In this document: positions 28,333 through 41,103 of the stretch, in pieces | Layout of the letters: the number at the start of each line of letters is the position of its first letter | How positions within the stretch are numbered: the stretch's first letter is position 1 | Source of the DNA: a virus | Lineage: Duplodnaviria; Heunggongvirae; Uroviricota; Caudoviricetes | IMG/VR virus record: IMGVR_UViG_3300027917_004307 | DNA length: 41,103 nucleotides | Reading direction: 5' to 3' (one strand) | Position numbers and translations under genes: made by a program | The notes under the pieces: model-generated | Told to the model about the DNA's origin: nothing | The model's input: only the letters and a program-made list of their open reading frames with translations | Database searches by the model: none

Positions 28333-28831
28333 AGAAGAAGAAGACGAGCTTGCCACAATAGTGTATGAATTCCTTATCGAAAATGGATATAAAAAGGCTC
28401 CAGGCCCGCATAAAGTAATCATCAGAGGAAGAACGTTCCACATAAGCACAAGGAAACCAGGTTGCGTTTCGTTGAGTACATGTGCGCCGTTAACGTGTAG
28501 CATAGTCTCGTGGTTGTATGAACCAAATGGGCTACAAAGGCTGCTTGACAAAGTAAAAGAGTGTGAAAACAGAAACTGTCATTCATGTGATAATTCAATA
28601 TTATATAAGATGTACGCTTCATCGAGCCAGGCGATAGCCATTTTGACAGCATCTATGTCAAAATATTCAATATCTATGTCAAAATTGGCCGTAAAATCAA
28701 TGTCGCTACAATCTATAGTTAAAATATTCAAACAAAAGCAAGCCATGGACAAAGCAATGGCTGAATACTTGACAAGAAGGGCTTTGCCTGTTACCATGTT
28801 TTTCAAAGGAGGGGAAAATGGACTTTCTTGA
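28322..28831 (+). CDS. Lx(D/E/N)P paralogue family protein with C-terminal extension
   Basis: IVYEFLIENGY ... LYEPNGLQRL, CHSC. Confidence 0.6.
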   Translation: MNCKEEEDELATIVYEFLIENGYKKAPGPHKVIIRGRTFHISTRKPGCVSLSTCAPLTCSIVSWLYEPNGLQRLLDKVKECENRNCHSCDNSILYKMYASSSQAIAILTASMSKYSISMSKLAVKSMSLQSIVKIFKQKQAMDKAMAEYLTRRALPVTMFFKGGENGLS

Positions 28832-30318: not shown

Positions 30319-30400
30319 GCCCAGAGATTTGGGTTCAAATCCCATGACCAGCAGGATGAGTAAGCCTGTTGTGATAGCTTAATCTGGTAAAGTGCTGGGC
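30319..30400 (+). ncRNA. Circularly permuted tRNA mimic Y1 (YrlA-like)
   Basis: GCCCAG - T-arm (GGGTTCAAATCCC) - CAGCAGG/ATGAGTAAG/CCTGTTG - D-arm (GCTTAATCTGGTAAAGT) - CTGGGC. Confidence 0.7.
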
Positions 30401-30441
30401 GTGATTACGAAGCCAGAAAATACTGGCACAATATAGAGAGA

Positions 30442-30581
30442 AACCGGAAGCGGGGGTTCGAATCCCTCCCATCGCAGGATGAATAAACCTGTTCGGGTGG
30501 CCTAGTCATGAGTTGGCTTGCAGAATGAATAACTCTGCTTGGGGCTATACCTGGTGGTAGTTTAGCGGCAGAACGCCGGTT
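30442..30581 (+). ncRNA. Circularly permuted tRNA mimic Y2 with duplicated acceptor-loop hairpin
   Basis: AACCGG - T-arm - CCATC - two ATGAATAA-loop hairpins - GGTGG - D-arm (GTTTAGCGGCAGAAC) - CCGGTT. Confidence 0.65.
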
Positions 30582-30590
30582 CGAAAATGA

Positions 30591-30691
30591 AGCCAGAGGC
30601 GCGGGTTCGATTCCCGCCTCCCCCCTCATCTAGAGGGCTAGGATGAGTAAGCCTACGCAGCGGGGAGTAGCTCAGTGGTAGAGCACTGGCT
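30591..30691 (+). ncRNA. Circularly permuted tRNA mimic Y3
   Basis: AGCCAG - GCGGG TTCGATT CCCGC - CTCCCC ... TAGG/ATGAGTAAG/CCTA ... GGGGAG - GCTCAGTGGTAGAGC - CTGGCT. Confidence 0.75.
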
Positions 30692-30700
30692 AAAAGAAAA

Positions 30701-30765
30701 GCCAGAGATAACCCCTGGGCAAGCAGTGGGATGAGTAAGCCCACTCAGGTAGGATTAACTCTGGC
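30701..30765 (+). ncRNA. Degenerate permuted module Y4 (T/D arms lost)
   Basis: GCCAGAG/CTCTGGC closing stem around AGTGGG-ATGAGTAAG-CCCACT. Confidence 0.5.
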
Positions 30766-30862: not shown

Positions 30863-30967
30863 CAAGAATTTCAGACGTTCTCTTTGGGAGGTTGCAGGTT
30901 CGAGTCCTGTCCCCCGGATCATCCGGGGGTAGCTCAATTTGGTAGAGCGCTAGTCATTTTATTCTTG
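30863..30967 (+). ncRNA. Circularly permuted tRNA mimic Y6
   Basis: T-arm GCAGG TTCGAGT CCTGT, closed acceptor CCCCCGGA-TCA-TCCGGGGG, D-arm GCTCAATTTGGTAGAGC, distal stem CAAGAAT/ATTCTTG. Confidence 0.7.
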
Positions 30968-33078: not shown

Positions 33079-33150
33079 TTGAAGTGTACTTGCTACGACA
33101 GAGAACAAACTGCTGTTCCTTTGTGTCCAATACACGGTTCACCAATGTAA
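33079..33150 (+). CDS. 23-aa Cys/His peptide (putative micro Zn finger)
   Basis: AAGGAGGTG SD, TTG start: MKCTCYDREQTAVPLCPIHGSPM. Confidence 0.6.
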   Translation: MKCTCYDREQTAVPLCPIHGSPM

Positions 33151-33182
33151 TCTTGGGGGTTGCGCATCCATAACACGCAAAT

Positions 33183-33272
33183 GGGAGTTGTTCCACGACC
33201 AGCCACCCATTTATCATTAAAGGCCACGAGTTTTGCAGACTCGCGTGGAAAGTTCGATTCCTTCAACTCTCA
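33183..33272 (+). pseudogene. Pseudo-tRNA, Ala(TGC)-like anticodon arm with disrupted D region
   Basis: GGGAGTT/AACTCTC acceptor, CGAGT-TT TGC AG-ACTCG, GTTCGATTC; ~36-nt aberrant D region; no G3.U70, no CCA. Confidence 0.45.
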
Positions 33273-33276
33273 TAAA

Positions 33277-33350
33277 TGCCCCGTAGTGTAATGGAAGCAC
33301 GAGCGGCTTTGACCCGCTTAGCGAAAGTTCGAACCTTTCCGGGGCAACCA
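33277..33350 (+). tRNA. tRNA-Gln(TTG)
   Basis: TGCCCCG/CGGGGCA; AGCGG-CT TTG AC-CCGCT; CCA. Confidence 0.95.
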
Positions 33351-33539
33351 GATCACCCGAGCCACCGCTGGAAACAGAGGAAGGTCAGGACACCACTGCT
33401 TAAGGTGGGAGGGAATTTTCCCGCTTACCACCAAGGGTGCAATCTCAAGCAGGCTGAGAGTGTGAGCAGCTCTACGAAAGCCGGGTAGAGAGCAAAGATT
33501 AATGGTGGCATAGAACAGAATCCTGCCTACTGGGTGATC
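33351..33539 (+). ncRNA. rnpB: Miniature RNase P RNA (catalytic domain only)
   Basis: P1 GATCACCC/GGGTGATC; P2 GCCACC/GGTGGC; P3 CTG-GAAA-CAG; CR-I GAGGAAGGTCAGGA pairs with TCCTGCC (P4, bulged U); P5 CACC/GGTG then CAA; P6 CTGCTT/AAGCAG; AGATTAATG (CR-IV); ACAGAATCCTGCCTA (CR-V). Confidence 0.9.
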
Positions 33540-33599
33540 TTTGATATTAAAGTATTTTATTACTCGTTTATATGATTCACATCAAAACCTGATAACTAT

Positions 33600-33750
33600 G
33601 GGGAAGTAGCTCAACAGGATAGAGTTAGTATGGCGGACCTACATCTTGTAGTCCTATCTATCGGCTAGTGCAGATAGGCAACGCCAGATGGACGGACCGT
33701 CAGAATACCCCGTATGGGTGACGTGGGTTCGAGTCCCACCTTCTCCACCA
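33600..33750 (+). ncRNA. tRNA-like RNA with Ala identity and an expanded multibranch anticodon domain
   Basis: GGGGAAG/CTTCTCC (G3.U70), A73, CCA; D-arm GCTC..GAGT; T-arm GTGGG TTCGAGT CCCAC; ~70 extra folded nt in the anticodon position. Confidence 0.8.
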
Positions 33751-34047
33751 ATGGAAACAACAGAAATATTGAAAGAATTAATCGATGAGCTTGGATATCA
33801 AGCCATAATTTATGATCTCATACCGCATTGGATCGGCGAATGTTACCGAACTATTGATGTAATCAGCCCCAGTACGTGGCCACGCAATAACGTAATCGCT
33901 ACTATCAAGGTTGACGGCGTCTTCATACATATCTTTAAGCGTGTTCTCGGAGGCCGGGGGCGTATAGAATCTAGCCATCAGCTAAGTTTATACGAACCGG
34001 ATTCATTCTGTAGAATAAAAGAAATATTAGCTGAATTAAATGACTAA
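33751..34047 (+). CDS. Lx(D/E/N)P paralogue family protein
   Basis: ATG immediately after CCA; ILKELIDELGY...LSLYEPDSF. Confidence 0.7.
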   Translation: METTEILKELIDELGYQAIIYDLIPHWIGECYRTIDVISPSTWPRNNVIATIKVDGVFIHIFKRVLGGRGRIESSHQLSLYEPDSFCRIKEILAELND

Positions 34048-35491
34048 AAAGAAACAAAAAGAACTTGATTTCATGAACGATCCACGGTACCATTACCAAA
34101 GGTCGCATGTGTCTGATGTCGTTGGAACGATCGATATTGATCGTTATCTCAAATGGTGTAAAGACAATGGATTCAAGGCTACCATATACAAAAGTTGGTT
34201 TGACATGAAGAAGGAAAAGTTGTACATCGCCAGAAAGAAATGCGACGAAAAACTGTTGGCCAGAAGGAAATTCAAGAATCCAAGGAAAGCACTGGATCTC
34301 GTGTTCGACTCAGACATCGTCGGCGCTGACGCGGCGTACAAAAATTTATACTCTAGAATAAAAACACTCAACAAGAAAGACAAAACCAAGTTCAAAAAGC
34401 TTATTACACATATCTACAAACATTCTGATATCCTCAAAGACCCGCCGTTGATAACGGGACTCCTGAACATCATGAAGTGGGAGCCTTATTACATAAATCG
34501 CCCAACGGAGTGGATGCCTAAGACACATAACACAAGAAGACAATTTTCTGATTTGCTTAGGCATTCTTTCTGCAAATACGATGTGCCAAAATTCATGGAC
34601 GAGGTGTGGTTCTCCGAATATGACGGAGCAATAGCCGGAGCAATAGCTGCTGAACTCAAGAGGGAATGGTTCATTTTCATTGGCCAGGGAGGAAATCTTA
34701 GGAAGGCTAGGAAACTACCATTCGAGGTGACGAAGAAGATCGCGCATTATTTTATGCAGGCTCCTGGCAATTTTTCAGTTGAAAACGCACTAATATGGGG
34801 AGTCGTGCACAGCATGGGCGGCGACAAACGAACCGTCGAGGGCATCCTCAGCACCAAAAGAAACGGACAGCTTAATCGACACAATTTCTGGGTAACGGTC
34901 TATAGATTCTTCGTCAACAACCCGATGCTAGACACAGCCCAATACAACCCAATCGTCGACTATATCGATGCCATGAAATATCAACCGCAATATGAATGGA
35001 CGGAACCAGGCATCAGAGTGGAGCGCCCGCCGATTCAGCCGAATTTTATGATGCGTGGAAGAACCGCTTTCTCGCTGTTAAGGCAAGTGGAAGCCTGGCA
35101 TAAGAAACTCGGCAAAGAGAAGAAAGGTGGGAAACTACAATGGGAGAAGAGTAAGTATAATGGATTTGAGTGCCAGACCGGTGAAAGAAGGAACGTCAAA
35201 ATTTGGACTATCAACGAATTGTTGTCAAGCGATGAGCTAATACAAGAAGGGAAAACAATGCGGCATTGCGTGGCGTCTTACGCTCGTTCCTGCCAGAGCC
35301 AAAGGGTCAGCATTTGGTCGATGAAGGTAGATACATGGGAAGGCAAGAAGAACGTACTGACCATCGAAGTCAGAGATGGAACAATCATGCAGGCCCGTGG
35401 CAAGAGAAACGAAAGACCCACAGAGGAAGCCAAGAACATCATAAAAAAGTGGAAGAAAACCCAAGGTCTCGGAATCAGTTCTTATATTTAA
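34040..35491 (+). CDS. PcfJ-domain protein
   Basis: C-terminal ELIQEGKTMRHCVASY...SIWSM...LTIEV..GTIMQARGKRN is the PcfJ-like signature. Confidence 0.85.
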   Translation: MTKKKQKELDFMNDPRYHYQRSHVSDVVGTIDIDRYLKWCKDNGFKATIYKSWFDMKKEKLYIARKKCDEKLLARRKFKNPRKALDLVFDSDIVGADAAYKNLYSRIKTLNKKDKTKFKKLITHIYKHSDILKDPPLITGLLNIMKWEPYYINRPTEWMPKTHNTRRQFSDLLRHSFCKYDVPKFMDEVWFSEYDGAIAGAIAAELKREWFIFIGQGGNLRKARKLPFEVTKKIAHYFMQAPGNFSVENALIWGVVHSMGGDKRTVEGILSTKRNGQLNRHNFWVTVYRFFVNNPMLDTAQYNPIVDYIDAMKYQPQYEWTEPGIRVERPPIQPNFMMRGRTAFSLLRQVEAWHKKLGKEKKGGKLQWEKSKYNGFECQTGERRNVKIWTINELLSSDELIQEGKTMRHCVASYARSCQSQRVSIWSMKVDTWEGKKNVLTIEVRDGTIMQARGKRNERPTEEAKNIIKKWKKTQGLGISSYI

Positions 35492-37890: not shown

Positions 37891-37960
37891 GGTCAGAGAT
37901 CCGGGTTCAAATCCCGGCGGTACCGGCCATACTGTAGCTTAACTTGGTAGAGCGCTGGCC
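37891..37960 (+). ncRNA. Minimal circularly permuted tRNA mimic Y5
   Basis: GGTCAG - CCGGG TTCAAAT CCCGG - CGGTA/CCGGCCA loop/TACTG - GCTT AACTTGGTA GAGC - CTGGCC. Confidence 0.75.
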
Positions 37961-40629: not shown

Positions 40630-41103
40630 TTATCGATCGGACTGAGATGCCTTATTAGCCCAATCTTTTTCAATTTCTTTTTTCCATTTCGGGCTACGTT
40701 TACGTTTTTCCGCTTTTTGGATCACTTCCGGAATCATCTGAAGCAACCGTTGCTTATCAACCGGTTTATCTAAAAAAGCGTCCGGGCTGAAATAATCATG
40801 GTCCGGCCATTGGCGGTAATTGATGTTTAACTCCTCTCCTATGGCGGAAACGCCAATGATAGGAATATCCTTAAGATCATCATTGGATCGTACTTGCTTG
40901 CAAACCTCAAAACCAGAGAACAGCGTCTCCATCATGATATCGAGCATGATCAAGTCGGGACGCTCTTTTCGGATTAATTCCAATCCTTTTTGACCTTCAT
41001 CGGCCGTCAATACCTCAAAGCCATTTCTTTTTAGAAATGTTTCCATCGTAAAAAGGAAATCGGTATTGTCATCGACTATTACGATTTTGAGGCTCTTTTT
41101 CAT
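40630..41103 (-). CDS. Response regulator receiver-domain protein (bacterial)
   Basis: IVDD, LDIMM (phospho-Asp), GVS, KP motifs; start at the window edge. Confidence 0.92.
   Translation of the reverse strand: MKKSLKIVIVDDNTDFLFTMETFLKRNGFEVLTADEGQKGLELIRKERPDLIMLDIMMETLFSGFEVCKQVRSNDDLKDIPIIGVSAIGEELNINYRQWPDHDYFSPDAFLDKPVDKQRLLQMIPEVIQKAEKRKRSPKWKKEIEKDWANKASQSDR

What the first reader, a model, noticed from the sequence alone, without database searches (positions are those of the whole stretch)
33600..33750. Alanine-identity tRNA-like RNA whose anticodon loop is replaced by a folded multibranch domain
Seen: intact acceptor (G3.U70, A73, CCA), D-arm, variable hairpin CCC-GTAT-GGG and T-arm. 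Between GTAT (33628-31) and ATAC (33705-08) lie GGCG/CGCC, CTACA/TGTAG, CCTATCT/AGATAGG (7 bp perfect) and GACG/CGTC helices. No exon joining gives a U33-containing 7-nt loop. A 12-codon ORF (33630-68, MADLHLVVLSIG) is inside but may be chance. Known: G3.U70 is sufficient for AlaRS charging and is used by tmRNA. Inference: an alanylated non-decoding RNA (tmRNA-like rescue factor, EF-Tu/AlaRS decoy, or tRNA with an unusual intron), ~60 nt downstream of the mini RNase P.
Basis: partly seen in the sequence, partly recalled or inferred. Interest (0 to 1): 0.75.

Follow-up and report, generated by a model that had tools for sequence, protein, structure and literature searches.

The report
Anticodon-less alanine-type tRNA-like phage RNA
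A giant uncultured phage carries a well-formed alanine-tRNA look-alike whose anticodon loop is replaced by a long hairpin, so it probably accepts alanine but cannot read codons; what it does is unknown.

Summary
Window 33600-33750 (+) is a 151-nt gene with a flawless tRNA top half: a 7-bp acceptor stem with G3:U70, A73, encoded CCA, a D-arm with G18G19 and a consensus T-arm. About 73 nt stand where the anticodon loop should be. Rfam tRNA scores 35.9 bits (cut-off 29), tmRNA scores 31.7 (cut-off 47), and ARAGORN calls nothing.

Two independent run assemblies carry the element without a difference. No single excision restores a canonical anticodon arm, whereas control insert-bearing phage tRNAs do regain one.

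A rod-like hairpin is about 11 kcal/mol better (pair probabilities about 0.9 against 0.08 or less). Only the 7-bp apical helix and the closing GUAU/AUAC helix survive.

I found no orthologue in any collection, so there is no covariation test. Two unrelated IMG/VR phages carry Ala-type tRNA-likes with the identical acceptor stem and other non-canonical bodies.

tmRNA and intron readings are not supported. My best reading is a non-decoding, RNase P-processed, probably alanine-accepting tRNA mimic.

This scan has noted similar anticodon-less Ala-type tRNA-likes on other DNA (phages and CPR bacteria). The closest published relatives are the TLD-only tmRNA of mycobacteriophage DS6A and the T4 stable RNAs rnaC and rnaD.

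The parts
33600..33750 (+). Whole 151-nt tRNA-like gene (mature RNA predicted G33600 to A33750)
   Evidence: Rfam RF00005 scores 35.9 bits against a cut-off of 29. Two independent run assemblies are identical over it.
33600..33606 (+). Acceptor stem 5' strand GGGGAAG. It pairs with 33740-33746, and G3 (33602) pairs with U70 (33744).
   Evidence: Sequence; 7/7 pairs (scanner).
33609..33625 (+). D-arm: stem GCTC/GAGT and 9-nt loop AACAGGATA with G18G19
   Evidence: Rfam alignment.
33628..33631 (+). GTAT, the 5' strand of a 4-bp remnant anticodon stem. It pairs with ATAC at 33705-33708.
Evidence: The fold that keeps it is -52.3 kcal/mol against an MFE of -54.0, but its ensemble probability is only 0.07.
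33631..33702 (+). 72-nt rod-like irregular hairpin in place of the anticodon loop. Its helices, in RNA numbering, are 32-37/98-103, 39-40/95-96, 43-47/87-91, 48-50/82-84 and 54-60/73-79.
   Evidence: MFE and constrained folds. Pair probabilities are 0.76-0.93. z = -2.4 against shuffles.
33653..33678 (+). Apical hairpin: a perfect 7-bp helix CCTATCT/AGATAGG with the 12-nt loop ATCGGCTAGTGC
   Evidence: Sequence; probability about 0.9. No enriched complement to the loop elsewhere in the window.
33706..33720 (+).
   Evidence: Pair probabilities 0.5-0.8. This is atypical for tRNA-Ala, which is a class I tRNA.
33723..33739 (+). T-arm GTGGG-TTCGAGT-CCCAC
   Evidence: Rfam alignment. The last 28 nt are identical to the 3' ends of ordinary phage tRNA-Ala(UGC) genes in IMG/VR.
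33740..33750 (+). Acceptor 3' strand CTTCTCC, discriminator A73, encoded CCA
   Evidence: Sequence. Most tRNAs of this array also encode CCA.
33630..33668 (+). 12-codon ORF (MADLHLVVLSIG) inside the rod; probably chance
   Evidence: Sequence. There is no tmRNA-type tag ending, and an open frame of this length has a chance probability of about 0.56.
33349..33545 (+). Neighbouring mini RNase P RNA, which lacks the S-domain. It is context only, a likely 5' processing activity.
   Evidence: RF00010 scores 66.5 bits, E = 3.6e-20, below the cut-off of 100 because about 170 model positions are missing. About 15 similar mini forms sit in metagenomic tRNA arrays.

Best explanation
This is a real gene for a tRNA-shaped RNA that does not decode.

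**Processing (inferred).** It is transcribed with the co-oriented tRNA array. RNase P, from the host and/or the phage's own mini RNase P 55 nt upstream, releases its 5' end at G33600. It ends in the encoded CCA.

**Charging (inferred).** Its top half carries the alanine identity set G3:U70, A73 and G2:C71. AlaRS reads only the acceptor stem, so the RNA is probably alanylated.

**No decoding (shown).** The anticodon loop is replaced by a roughly 73-nt rod-like hairpin, so the RNA cannot pair with a codon or occupy the A site as a normal tRNA.

**Likely action (inferred).** It most likely acts off the decoding pathway. It could be a stable tRNA mimic or decoy for factors that recognise the acceptor and T-arm half of tRNA, such as AlaRS, EF-Tu, SmpB or tRNA-targeting host enzymes. 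It could also be a tRNA scaffold that gets the rod processed and stabilised.

Shown here: the anatomy, the absence of any decodable form, and that the DNA is real. Inferred: processing, charging and the decoy or scaffold role.
For: - **Scaffold.** It is flawless and scores as tRNA, and U is at -1 before G1.
- **No anticodon arm.** No excision yields one, while control insert-bearing tRNAs do regain one.
- **Structured insert.** It folds better than shuffles (z = -2.4) and has a high-probability rod.
- **Real DNA.** Two run assemblies are identical over it.
- **Not a recent copy of the phage's own tRNA-Ala.** Those two genes begin GGGCGGG and GGGCGTG.
- **Analogues with the same acceptor.** Two unrelated IMG/VR phages carry Ala-type tRNA-likes with the identical acceptor GGGGAAG/CTTCTCC-ACCA and non-canonical bodies. 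One is a 108-nt gene in which about 55 nt stand in place of the anticodon arm. It is the only tRNA-model hit above the cut-off in a complete 63-kb phage. The same acceptor pattern gave only coding-sequence chance matches, none with a T-arm, among representative genomes of about 185,000 bacterial and archaeal species.
- **Other expanded tRNA-likes.** CCA-ended tRNA-likes of 141 and 190 nt occur in other phage arrays that have a mini RNase P.
- **Published precedent.** A phage TLD-only RNA has been proposed to titrate SmpB (PMC4131195; located in DS6A).
- **Established knowledge.** G3:U70 minihelices are AlaRS substrates, and engineered tRNA scaffolds with the anticodon arm replaced are processed and stable in E. 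coli.
Against: - No orthologue was found anywhere. There is therefore no conservation or covariation evidence that the rod, or the gene itself, is under selection.
- The closest relatives' contigs end before this part of the array.
- No RNA data exist for this sample.
- The analogues share the acceptor but not the insert: R1 scores them like ordinary tRNA-Ala, 32-34 against 27-30 bits.
- A15 opposite C48 is a non-standard Levitt pair.
- Charging, EF-Tu binding and any target are untested.
Confidence: 0.55

Rival explanations
1. This is a dead tRNA-Ala gene. An insertion or replacement destroyed the anticodon arm, and the remnant is neutral clutter in a fast-evolving tRNA array.
For: It is a singleton with no orthologue. 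The accessory region around it is made of orphan genes that are not syntenic with relatives. The array holds other odd tRNA-like pieces. The phage already has two decoding tRNA-Ala genes. A GTATGG direct repeat flanks most of the extra sequence (33628-33 and 33712-17).
Against: Every scaffold element is intact, with no decay in 7+4+5 stem pairs, the T-loop, G18G19 or CCA. The insert is more structured than chance. It is not a repeated or mobile sequence in the window or in any fetched locus. Removing the sequence between the direct repeats leaves no anticodon arm at all. Similar intact Ala-type mimics occur in unrelated phages.
Confidence: 0.2
2. It is a decoy for the tRNA-like domain of tmRNA. 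It binds host SmpB (and AlaRS and EF-Tu) and so inhibits trans-translation during infection, as proposed for the TLD-only RNA of mycobacteriophage DS6A.
For: The acceptor and T-arm match the tmRNA model (31.7 bits, E = 3.8e-11 locally). The published DS6A precedent and the inhibitory TLD molecule are described in PMC4131195. The sequence GAC-G lies just before the T-arm, where the tmRNA consensus has GGAC-G.
Against: The score is below the cut-off of 47 and comes only from parts shared with tRNA-Ala. The element has a canonical D-stem and D-loop. DS6A (43.2 bits) and tmRNAs have the stemless GG..UCGAC D-region that SmpB contacts. A rod about 24 bp long occupies the space SmpB would fill.
Confidence: 0.1
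3. It is a precursor tRNA with an unconventional intervening sequence that is removed, by a phage or host activity, to give a decoding tRNA.
For: Other phage arrays with a mini RNase P do hold tRNAs with 26-29-nt anticodon-loop inserts whose removal restores canonical loops (L123). T4-type phages are known to encode RNA repair enzymes (established knowledge).
Against: Exhaustive enumeration finds no excision that gives a stem with at least 4 of 5 pairs plus a 7-nt loop with U33 and R37. The only relaxed solution has two G:U pairs, a mismatch and C37. There is no group I intron or ribozyme hit at E up to 10, and 73 nt is far below group I size. No bulge-helix-bulge motif appears in the fold.
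Confidence: 0.07
4. It is a miniature tmRNA that both accepts alanine and templates a short tag from the internal 12-codon frame.
For: It has Ala identity. An internal frame begins next to a GCG codon and ends at a UAG in the apical loop. The two analogues also contain ORFs of 10-11 codons.
Against: ARAGORN finds no tmRNA. There are no pseudoknots, the frame is buried in a stable rod, and the peptide ending (LSIG) is unlike degradation tags. The three ORFs share no peptide similarity beyond a short LHL motif in two of them, and are expected by chance. No phage SmpB was found.
Confidence: 0.05

Closest known systems
Canonical bacterial or phage tRNA-Ala (Rfam RF00005)
   Same: Acceptor stem with G3:U70, A73, CCA, the D-arm and the T-arm. 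The 3' 28 nt are identical to ordinary IMG/VR phage tRNA-Ala(UGC) genes. It lies in a tRNA array.
   Different: There is no anticodon stem-loop: about 73 nt of rod hairpin plus an extra small hairpin stand in its place. It is 151 nt rather than 76, and ARAGORN does not call it.
TLD-only tmRNA of mycobacteriophage DS6A and the tmRNA tRNA-like domain (RF00023; PMC4131195)
   Same: A phage-encoded, Ala-type acceptor and T-arm molecule with no anticodon and no credible tag frame. A decoy role is plausible.
   Different: DS6A's 83-nt RNA has the tmRNA-type stemless D-region and a P2 helix, and scores 43.2 bits. This element has a true tRNA D-arm, a much longer rod, and scores 31.7 bits.
Phage T4 stable RNAs rnaC and rnaD (species 1 and 2 RNAs) in the T4 tRNA cluster
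   Same: Non-tRNA stable RNAs of 120-140 nt encoded within the tRNA cluster of a T4-type phage. rnaC has a T-arm and an acceptor-like 3' domain. Their function is still unknown.
   Different: There is no sequence or model similarity: R1 hits only the T4 tRNAs in that locus. The T4 RNAs lack the full Ala-type cloverleaf scaffold and G3:U70.
Engineered 'tRNA scaffold' RNAs (anticodon arm replaced by a cargo RNA; e.g. PMC3753655)
   Same: The same architecture: an intact acceptor, D-arm and T-arm, with cargo in place of the anticodon arm. Such chimeras are known to be processed and stable in E. coli.
   Different: Those are artificial. Here the architecture is natural, with Ala identity and an unknown cargo function.
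YrlA / bacterial Y RNA tRNA-like modules (RF02553)
   Same: tRNA mimicry by a non-decoding RNA. A YrlA-like module lies in the same array at 30600-30684.
   Different: YrlA modules are circularly permuted, with the acceptor closed by a loop and no free CCA end. This element has normal termini.

Membership tests
tRNA (RF00005), decoding tRNA-Ala | Covariance-model score above the gathering threshold | tested here: met
   35.9 bits against 29.
tRNA (RF00005), decoding tRNA-Ala | 7-bp acceptor stem, D-arm and T-arm with consensus loops | tested here: met
   All stems are fully paired, and G18G19 and TTCGAGT are present.
tRNA (RF00005), decoding tRNA-Ala | 5-bp anticodon stem with a 7-nt loop carrying U33, the anticodon and R37 | tested here: not met
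   Absent as encoded, and not obtainable by any single excision. ARAGORN makes no call.
tRNA (RF00005), decoding tRNA-Ala | Alanine identity set (G3:U70, A73, G2:C71) | tested here: met
   Read from the sequence. Actual charging is not testable here.
tmRNA (RF00023) | Score above the gathering threshold, or an ARAGORN tmRNA call | tested here: not met
   31.7 bits against 47, aligned only over the acceptor and T-arm. ARAGORN finds none.
tmRNA (RF00023) | Stemless D-region (GG..UCGAC) and a P2 helix that bind SmpB | tested here: not met
   A canonical D-stem and D-loop are present. Contrast the DS6A TLD-only alignment.
tmRNA (RF00023) | Tag reading frame with a resume codon, flanked by pseudoknots | tested here: not met
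   There is only a chance-level 12-codon frame buried in the rod, and no pseudoknot is possible in 73 nt.
tmRNA (RF00023) | SmpB partner | tested here: inconclusive
   There is no SmpB (PF01668) hit in 38 related or analogous phage records. The window's own complete genome is not held. Host SmpB would exist in any case.
Intron-containing bacterial or phage tRNA (group I intron in the anticodon loop) | Group I intron core, usually at least 200 nt | tested here: not met
   No RF00028 or ribozyme match at E up to 10. The insert is about 73 nt.
Intron-containing bacterial or phage tRNA (group I intron in the anticodon loop) | Exon ligation restores a canonical anticodon arm | tested here: not met
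   Enumeration. The positive controls (L123) pass.
Archaeal-type tRNA intron | Bulge-helix-bulge motif at the exon-intron junctions | tested here: not met
No 3-nt bulge / 4-bp helix / 3-nt bulge arrangement in the MFE or suboptimal folds.
T4 rnaC/rnaD stable RNAs | Sequence or structure homology to T4 species 1 or 2 RNA | tested here: not met
   R1 finds only tRNAs in the T4 locus. There is no blastn match to cultured phages beyond the T-arm and acceptor.
Anticodon-less Ala-type tRNA-like RNAs noted earlier by this scan (unpublished, unverified) | Intact Ala-type top half with the anticodon arm lost or replaced by a hairpin or rod; found in phages or CPR bacteria | tested here: met
   The anatomy was met here. 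Independent phage analogues were found here. Homology to the earlier cases could not be tested, because no shared words were found.

The most novel reading that the evidence does not exclude
The element is one member of a widespread, undescribed class of alanine-accepting tRNA mimics without an anticodon, found in phages and, according to earlier notes of this scan, in CPR bacteria. In this reading, charging by AlaRS is the point of the design. The rod keeps the charged RNA off the decoding pathway, so that it interferes with, or feeds, an alanyl-tRNA-dependent or ribosome-rescue process in the host. Candidates are SmpB-tmRNA, EF-Tu pools, Ala-tailing and aminoacyl-transferases.
Probability: 0.25. 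Interest if true: 0.8.

Novelty: new variant of a known kind. Interest (0 to 1): 0.55.

Why it matters
If the RNA is made and charged, it would be a natural tRNA-scaffolded RNA: a molecule that uses the tRNA processing and identity system without taking part in decoding.

That bears on an old open question, namely what the non-tRNA stable RNAs in T4-type tRNA clusters are for. It also bears on how phages manipulate host translation quality control or evade tRNA-directed defences.

The recurrence of the same Ala-type acceptor on different non-decoding bodies in unrelated phages suggests selection for AlaRS recognition, which does not depend on the anticodon. Simple biochemistry can test this directly.

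For this single locus the case is limited, because there are no orthologues and no expression data.

Tried and rejected
**Searches for orthologues (all negative)**
- blastn against INPHARED phages: no match, or only the T-arm and acceptor.
- Exact and degenerate patterns in IMG/VR: only ordinary tRNA-Ala genes or tandem tRNAs at this size.
- A fixed-acceptor pattern in metagenome contigs: 0 hits.
- The relaxed acceptor pattern in genome contigs: 30 hits, all coding-sequence chance matches with no T-arm.
- Covariance model R1 over 50 sheath-related phage records and 19 mini-RNase-P loci: only normal-length tRNAs.

**Neighbouring proteins as anchors**
- The PcfJ-like gene is not syntenic in its best relative.
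- The 98-aa ORF has no homologue.
- The 547-aa ORF has no IMG/VR relative.
- The CheY-like gene's relatives are cellular, not phage.
- There is no synteny between the window and the array of relative G006.

**Other checks**
- Sequencing runs: no RNA holder is listed, only two DNA runs of one sample.
- No copy of the insert exists elsewhere in the window or in fetched loci, so it is not a repeated mobile element.
- Complements to the apical loop are not enriched.
- No promoter or terminator consensus of note lies near the element.
- No informative Pfam or PHROG hit was found on array-region ORFs.
- I looked for the GGGGAAG/CTTCTCC acceptor in 301 genomes of the phylum of one 'Deltaproteobacteria' MAG and found none. 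The phylum may not be the host's, so this says nothing about host mimicry.
- The weak blastn likeness of nt 110-151 to phage tRNA-Ser and tRNA-Leu genes (E about 0.1) is not significant.
- I considered and rejected hammerhead, twister, HDV and other ribozymes (no Rfam hit), a CRISPR-repeat mimic, an attP remnant (both tRNA halves are present and there is no integrase), and a trans-acting S-domain for the mini RNase P (no resemblance).

Full report
**Setting.** The window is part of an uncultured T4-type jumbo phage. It holds tail sheath, baseplate J and V-type spike genes. Its proteins map to a 261,688-nt contig from a marine sediment metagenome. Between about 29.3 and 39.6 kb lies a co-oriented array of 18 ARAGORN-called tRNAs, most with encoded CCA. 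Immediately upstream of the finding, 33349-33545 matches bacterial RNase P RNA from end to end with the specificity domain missing (66.5 bits, E = 3.6e-20).

**The observation.**
- GGGGAAG pairs with CTTCTCC, 7/7 pairs with G3:U70.
- A73 and CCA are present, as are U8 and A14.
- The D-stem is GCTC/GAGT, and the D-loop carries G18G19.
- The T-arm is GTGGG-TTCGAGT-CCCAC.

Rfam's tRNA model accepts it at 35.9 bits (cut-off 29), replacing model positions 27-44 with 93 nt. ARAGORN calls nothing there. The tmRNA model gives 31.7 bits (cut-off 47), aligned only over the acceptor and T-arm.

The locus is not an assembly artefact. Logan's independent assemblies of two runs of the sample cover 33082-34300 and 33467-34299 with no differences.

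**Is there a hidden decoding tRNA?** I enumerated every single excision between the D-stem and the T-stem. For each I asked for a stem with at least 4 of 5 pairs, a 7-nt loop with U33 and R37, and a variable region of at least 3 nt. None exists. Dropping R37 gives only AGUAU/AUACCCC/GUAUG, which has a mismatch, two G:U pairs and C37. The same script recovers clean solutions for two insert-bearing tRNAs from another phage array (L123: CUUGGAA or CUGUUAA-type loops after removing 26-29 nt). No group I intron or small ribozyme model matches at E up to 10.

**The fold.**
- It scores -41.0 kcal/mol, against -52 to -54 kcal/mol for a rod-like irregular hairpin spanning RNA positions 32-103.
- With the scaffold fixed, ensemble pair probabilities are 0.76-0.93 for the rod helices and the apical 7-bp helix. 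They are 0.00-0.08 for GGCG/CGCC, CTACA/TGTAG and GACG/CGTC.
- A hybrid fold is nearly isoenergetic at -52.3 kcal/mol.
- The 72-nt insert alone is more stable than its shuffles, z = -2.4, with 3 of 200 as good.

The best current picture is a cloverleaf whose anticodon loop is replaced by a roughly 24-bp interrupted rod capped by a 12-nt loop, plus a short extra hairpin before the T-arm. Without homologues, neither fold can be tested by covariation.

**Search for relatives.**
- I found no orthologue in cultured phages, IMG/VR, JGI metagenome contigs or representative genomes of about 185,000 bacterial and archaeal species.
- A covariance model of the element (R1) found only normal-length tRNAs in 50 phage records related by tail sheath.
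- The closest relatives, at 75-81% sheath identity, are short contigs that break at the start of the array (G003 has tRNAs at 24.9 and 27.4 kb of a 27.5-kb contig).
- Flanking proteins are orphans or are not syntenic.
- A pattern for the mini RNase P recovered 19 metagenomic loci. About 15 of them are the same mini type and sit in tRNA arrays. None has this element beside it, so the adjacency is not a conserved linkage.

**Analogues.** A pattern asking only for an Ala-type 5' end, GTAGCTCA, a T-loop and CTCCACCA, with a spacing too short for tandem tRNAs, found two IMG/VR hits. Both have exactly the same acceptor stem as this element, GGGGAAG/CTTCTCC-ACCA.
- **G052** is a 63-kb phage rated 100% complete. 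Its 108-nt gene has a normal D-arm, and about 55 nt including a GAAA-capped hairpin stand where the anticodon arm should be. It is the only tRNA-model hit above the cut-off in that genome.
- **G051** is a 376-kb phage with 52 tRNA hits. Its 112-nt gene has a 37-nt D-loop insertion and an anticodon-like loop GGAGCAA with G33. A second, 128-nt tRNA-like with a replaced anticodon arm lies 630 nt away.

These phages are not close relatives of the window's phage: the sheath match is 40% or absent. The inserts are not alignable. R1 scores the analogues no better than ordinary tRNA-Ala. They are analogues, not orthologues.

A scanner for perfect acceptor, D-arm and T-arm scaffolds longer than 95 nt also found CCA-ended tRNA-likes of 141 nt (L130) and 190 nt (L133) in other mini-RNase-P arrays. 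These are not of Ala type.

**Earlier notes of this scan.** They are AI notes and serve as leads only. They describe several anticodon-less Ala-type tRNA-likes in phages and CPR bacteria, one with a 94-nt rod. No shared sequence words link them to this locus. My own results agree with their general picture but do not establish homology.

**tmRNA question.**
- The only published near-precedent I found is the TLD-only tmRNA of mycobacteriophage DS6A, proposed to titrate SmpB (PMC4131195).
- I located it at 28478-28560 of JN698994. It scores 43.2 bits and shows the tmRNA-type stemless D-region and P2 helix.
- The present element instead has a true D-arm and scores lower.
- It has no pseudoknots, and its 12-codon frame lies inside the rod and ends unlike a degradation tag.
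- The analogues' 10-11-codon frames share no peptide similarity beyond a short LHL motif in two of them.
- No SmpB gene was found in 38 related or analogous phage records.
- T4's rnaC and rnaD, the classical unexplained stable RNAs of a T4 tRNA cluster, were fetched and show no model similarity.

**Interpretation.**
- **Shown:** a real, intact, Ala-type tRNA-shaped gene that cannot yield a decoding tRNA and that carries a structured rod.
- **Inferred from established knowledge:** 5' processing by RNase P (U at -1, tRNA-like top half, encoded CCA). Also alanylation, because AlaRS recognises G3:U70 in the acceptor stem independently of the anticodon.
- **Inferred more weakly:** an off-ribosome role as a mimic or decoy, or as a scaffold for the rod.
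- **Main rival:** a disrupted, neutral tRNA-Ala remnant. The perfect scaffold, the structured and non-repeated insert and the analogues in other phages argue against it. The lack of any orthologue keeps it alive.

**Verdict.** Interest is moderate and rests on biochemistry and wider sampling.

Noticed in passing
window 33349-33545: The mini RNase P RNA (bacterial type A core without the S-domain) belongs to a family. A spacing-restricted P4 pattern found 19 metagenomic loci, of which about 15 are the same mini type inside tRNA arrays. One sheath-relative (G006) instead carries a full-size RNase P RNA (229 bits) in its array. A second contig in the same sample carries a related mini form of the same size.
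   Followed up: partly
window 30600-30684 and 30354-30745: A YrlA-like permuted tRNA module (RF02553, 33.5 bits, E = 1.3e-5) lies here: a T-arm, an acceptor closed by a hairpin, then a D-arm. A hairpin with the conserved 9-nt loop ATGARTAAN and covarying stems recurs five times (about 30356, 30479, 30525, 30643 and 30731).
   Followed up: partly
window 30368-30476: A second over-long tRNA hit (109 nt, 30.2 bits) has a 45-nt insert and a mismatched acceptor stem. No excision restores an anticodon arm here either.
   Followed up: partly
window 30894-30910 and 37901-37917: These are further perfect T-arm modules (GCAGG-TTCGAGT-CCTGT and CCGGG-TTCAAAT-CCCGG) that lie in no called tRNA.
   Followed up: no
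window 40630-41103 (-): This CheY-like receiver-domain gene is 82-88% identical to cellular proteins. Those proteins sit beside a PAS histidine kinase and Hdr/Fe-S oxidoreductase genes, and one source names a Desulfobacterales MAG. The gene is probably host-derived and hints at a sulfate-reducer host.
   Followed up: partly
L123 4822-5160: Three adjacent tRNAs in a metagenomic mini-RNase-P array are each about 100 nt long, with inserts in or at the anticodon loop. For the two tested (4822 and 5057), removing 26-29 nt restores a canonical loop. They look like introns, but no known bacterial splicing route exists for introns this short.
   Followed up: partly
L118 655-750, L120 8580-8674, L124 545-641 (-), L126 1289-1385: These are tRNA-Ile(UAU)-like genes with an unexpected long variable arm whose loop keeps CCAGATTAG. 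They are conserved across several mini-RNase-P arrays.
   Followed up: no
L130 1272-1412 (-) and L133 7207-7396: These are CCA-ended tRNA-like RNAs of 141 and 190 nt with perfect acceptor, D-arm and T-arm and large structured bodies. They are not of Ala type and lie in other phage arrays that encode a mini RNase P.
   Followed up: partly
L095 12244-12319 (G006): This is a tRNA-Ala(UGC)-like gene with G3:U70 and an aberrant D-region. ARAGORN misses it, and only the tmRNA model picks it up weakly (16.4 bits).
   Followed up: no
window 33751-34047 and 34040-35491: An orphan 98-aa ORF starts immediately after the CCA of the tRNA-like gene and overlaps the start of a PcfJ-like gene by 8 nt. 3' processing of the tRNA-like RNA could therefore define the 5' end of this mRNA.
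   Followed up: no
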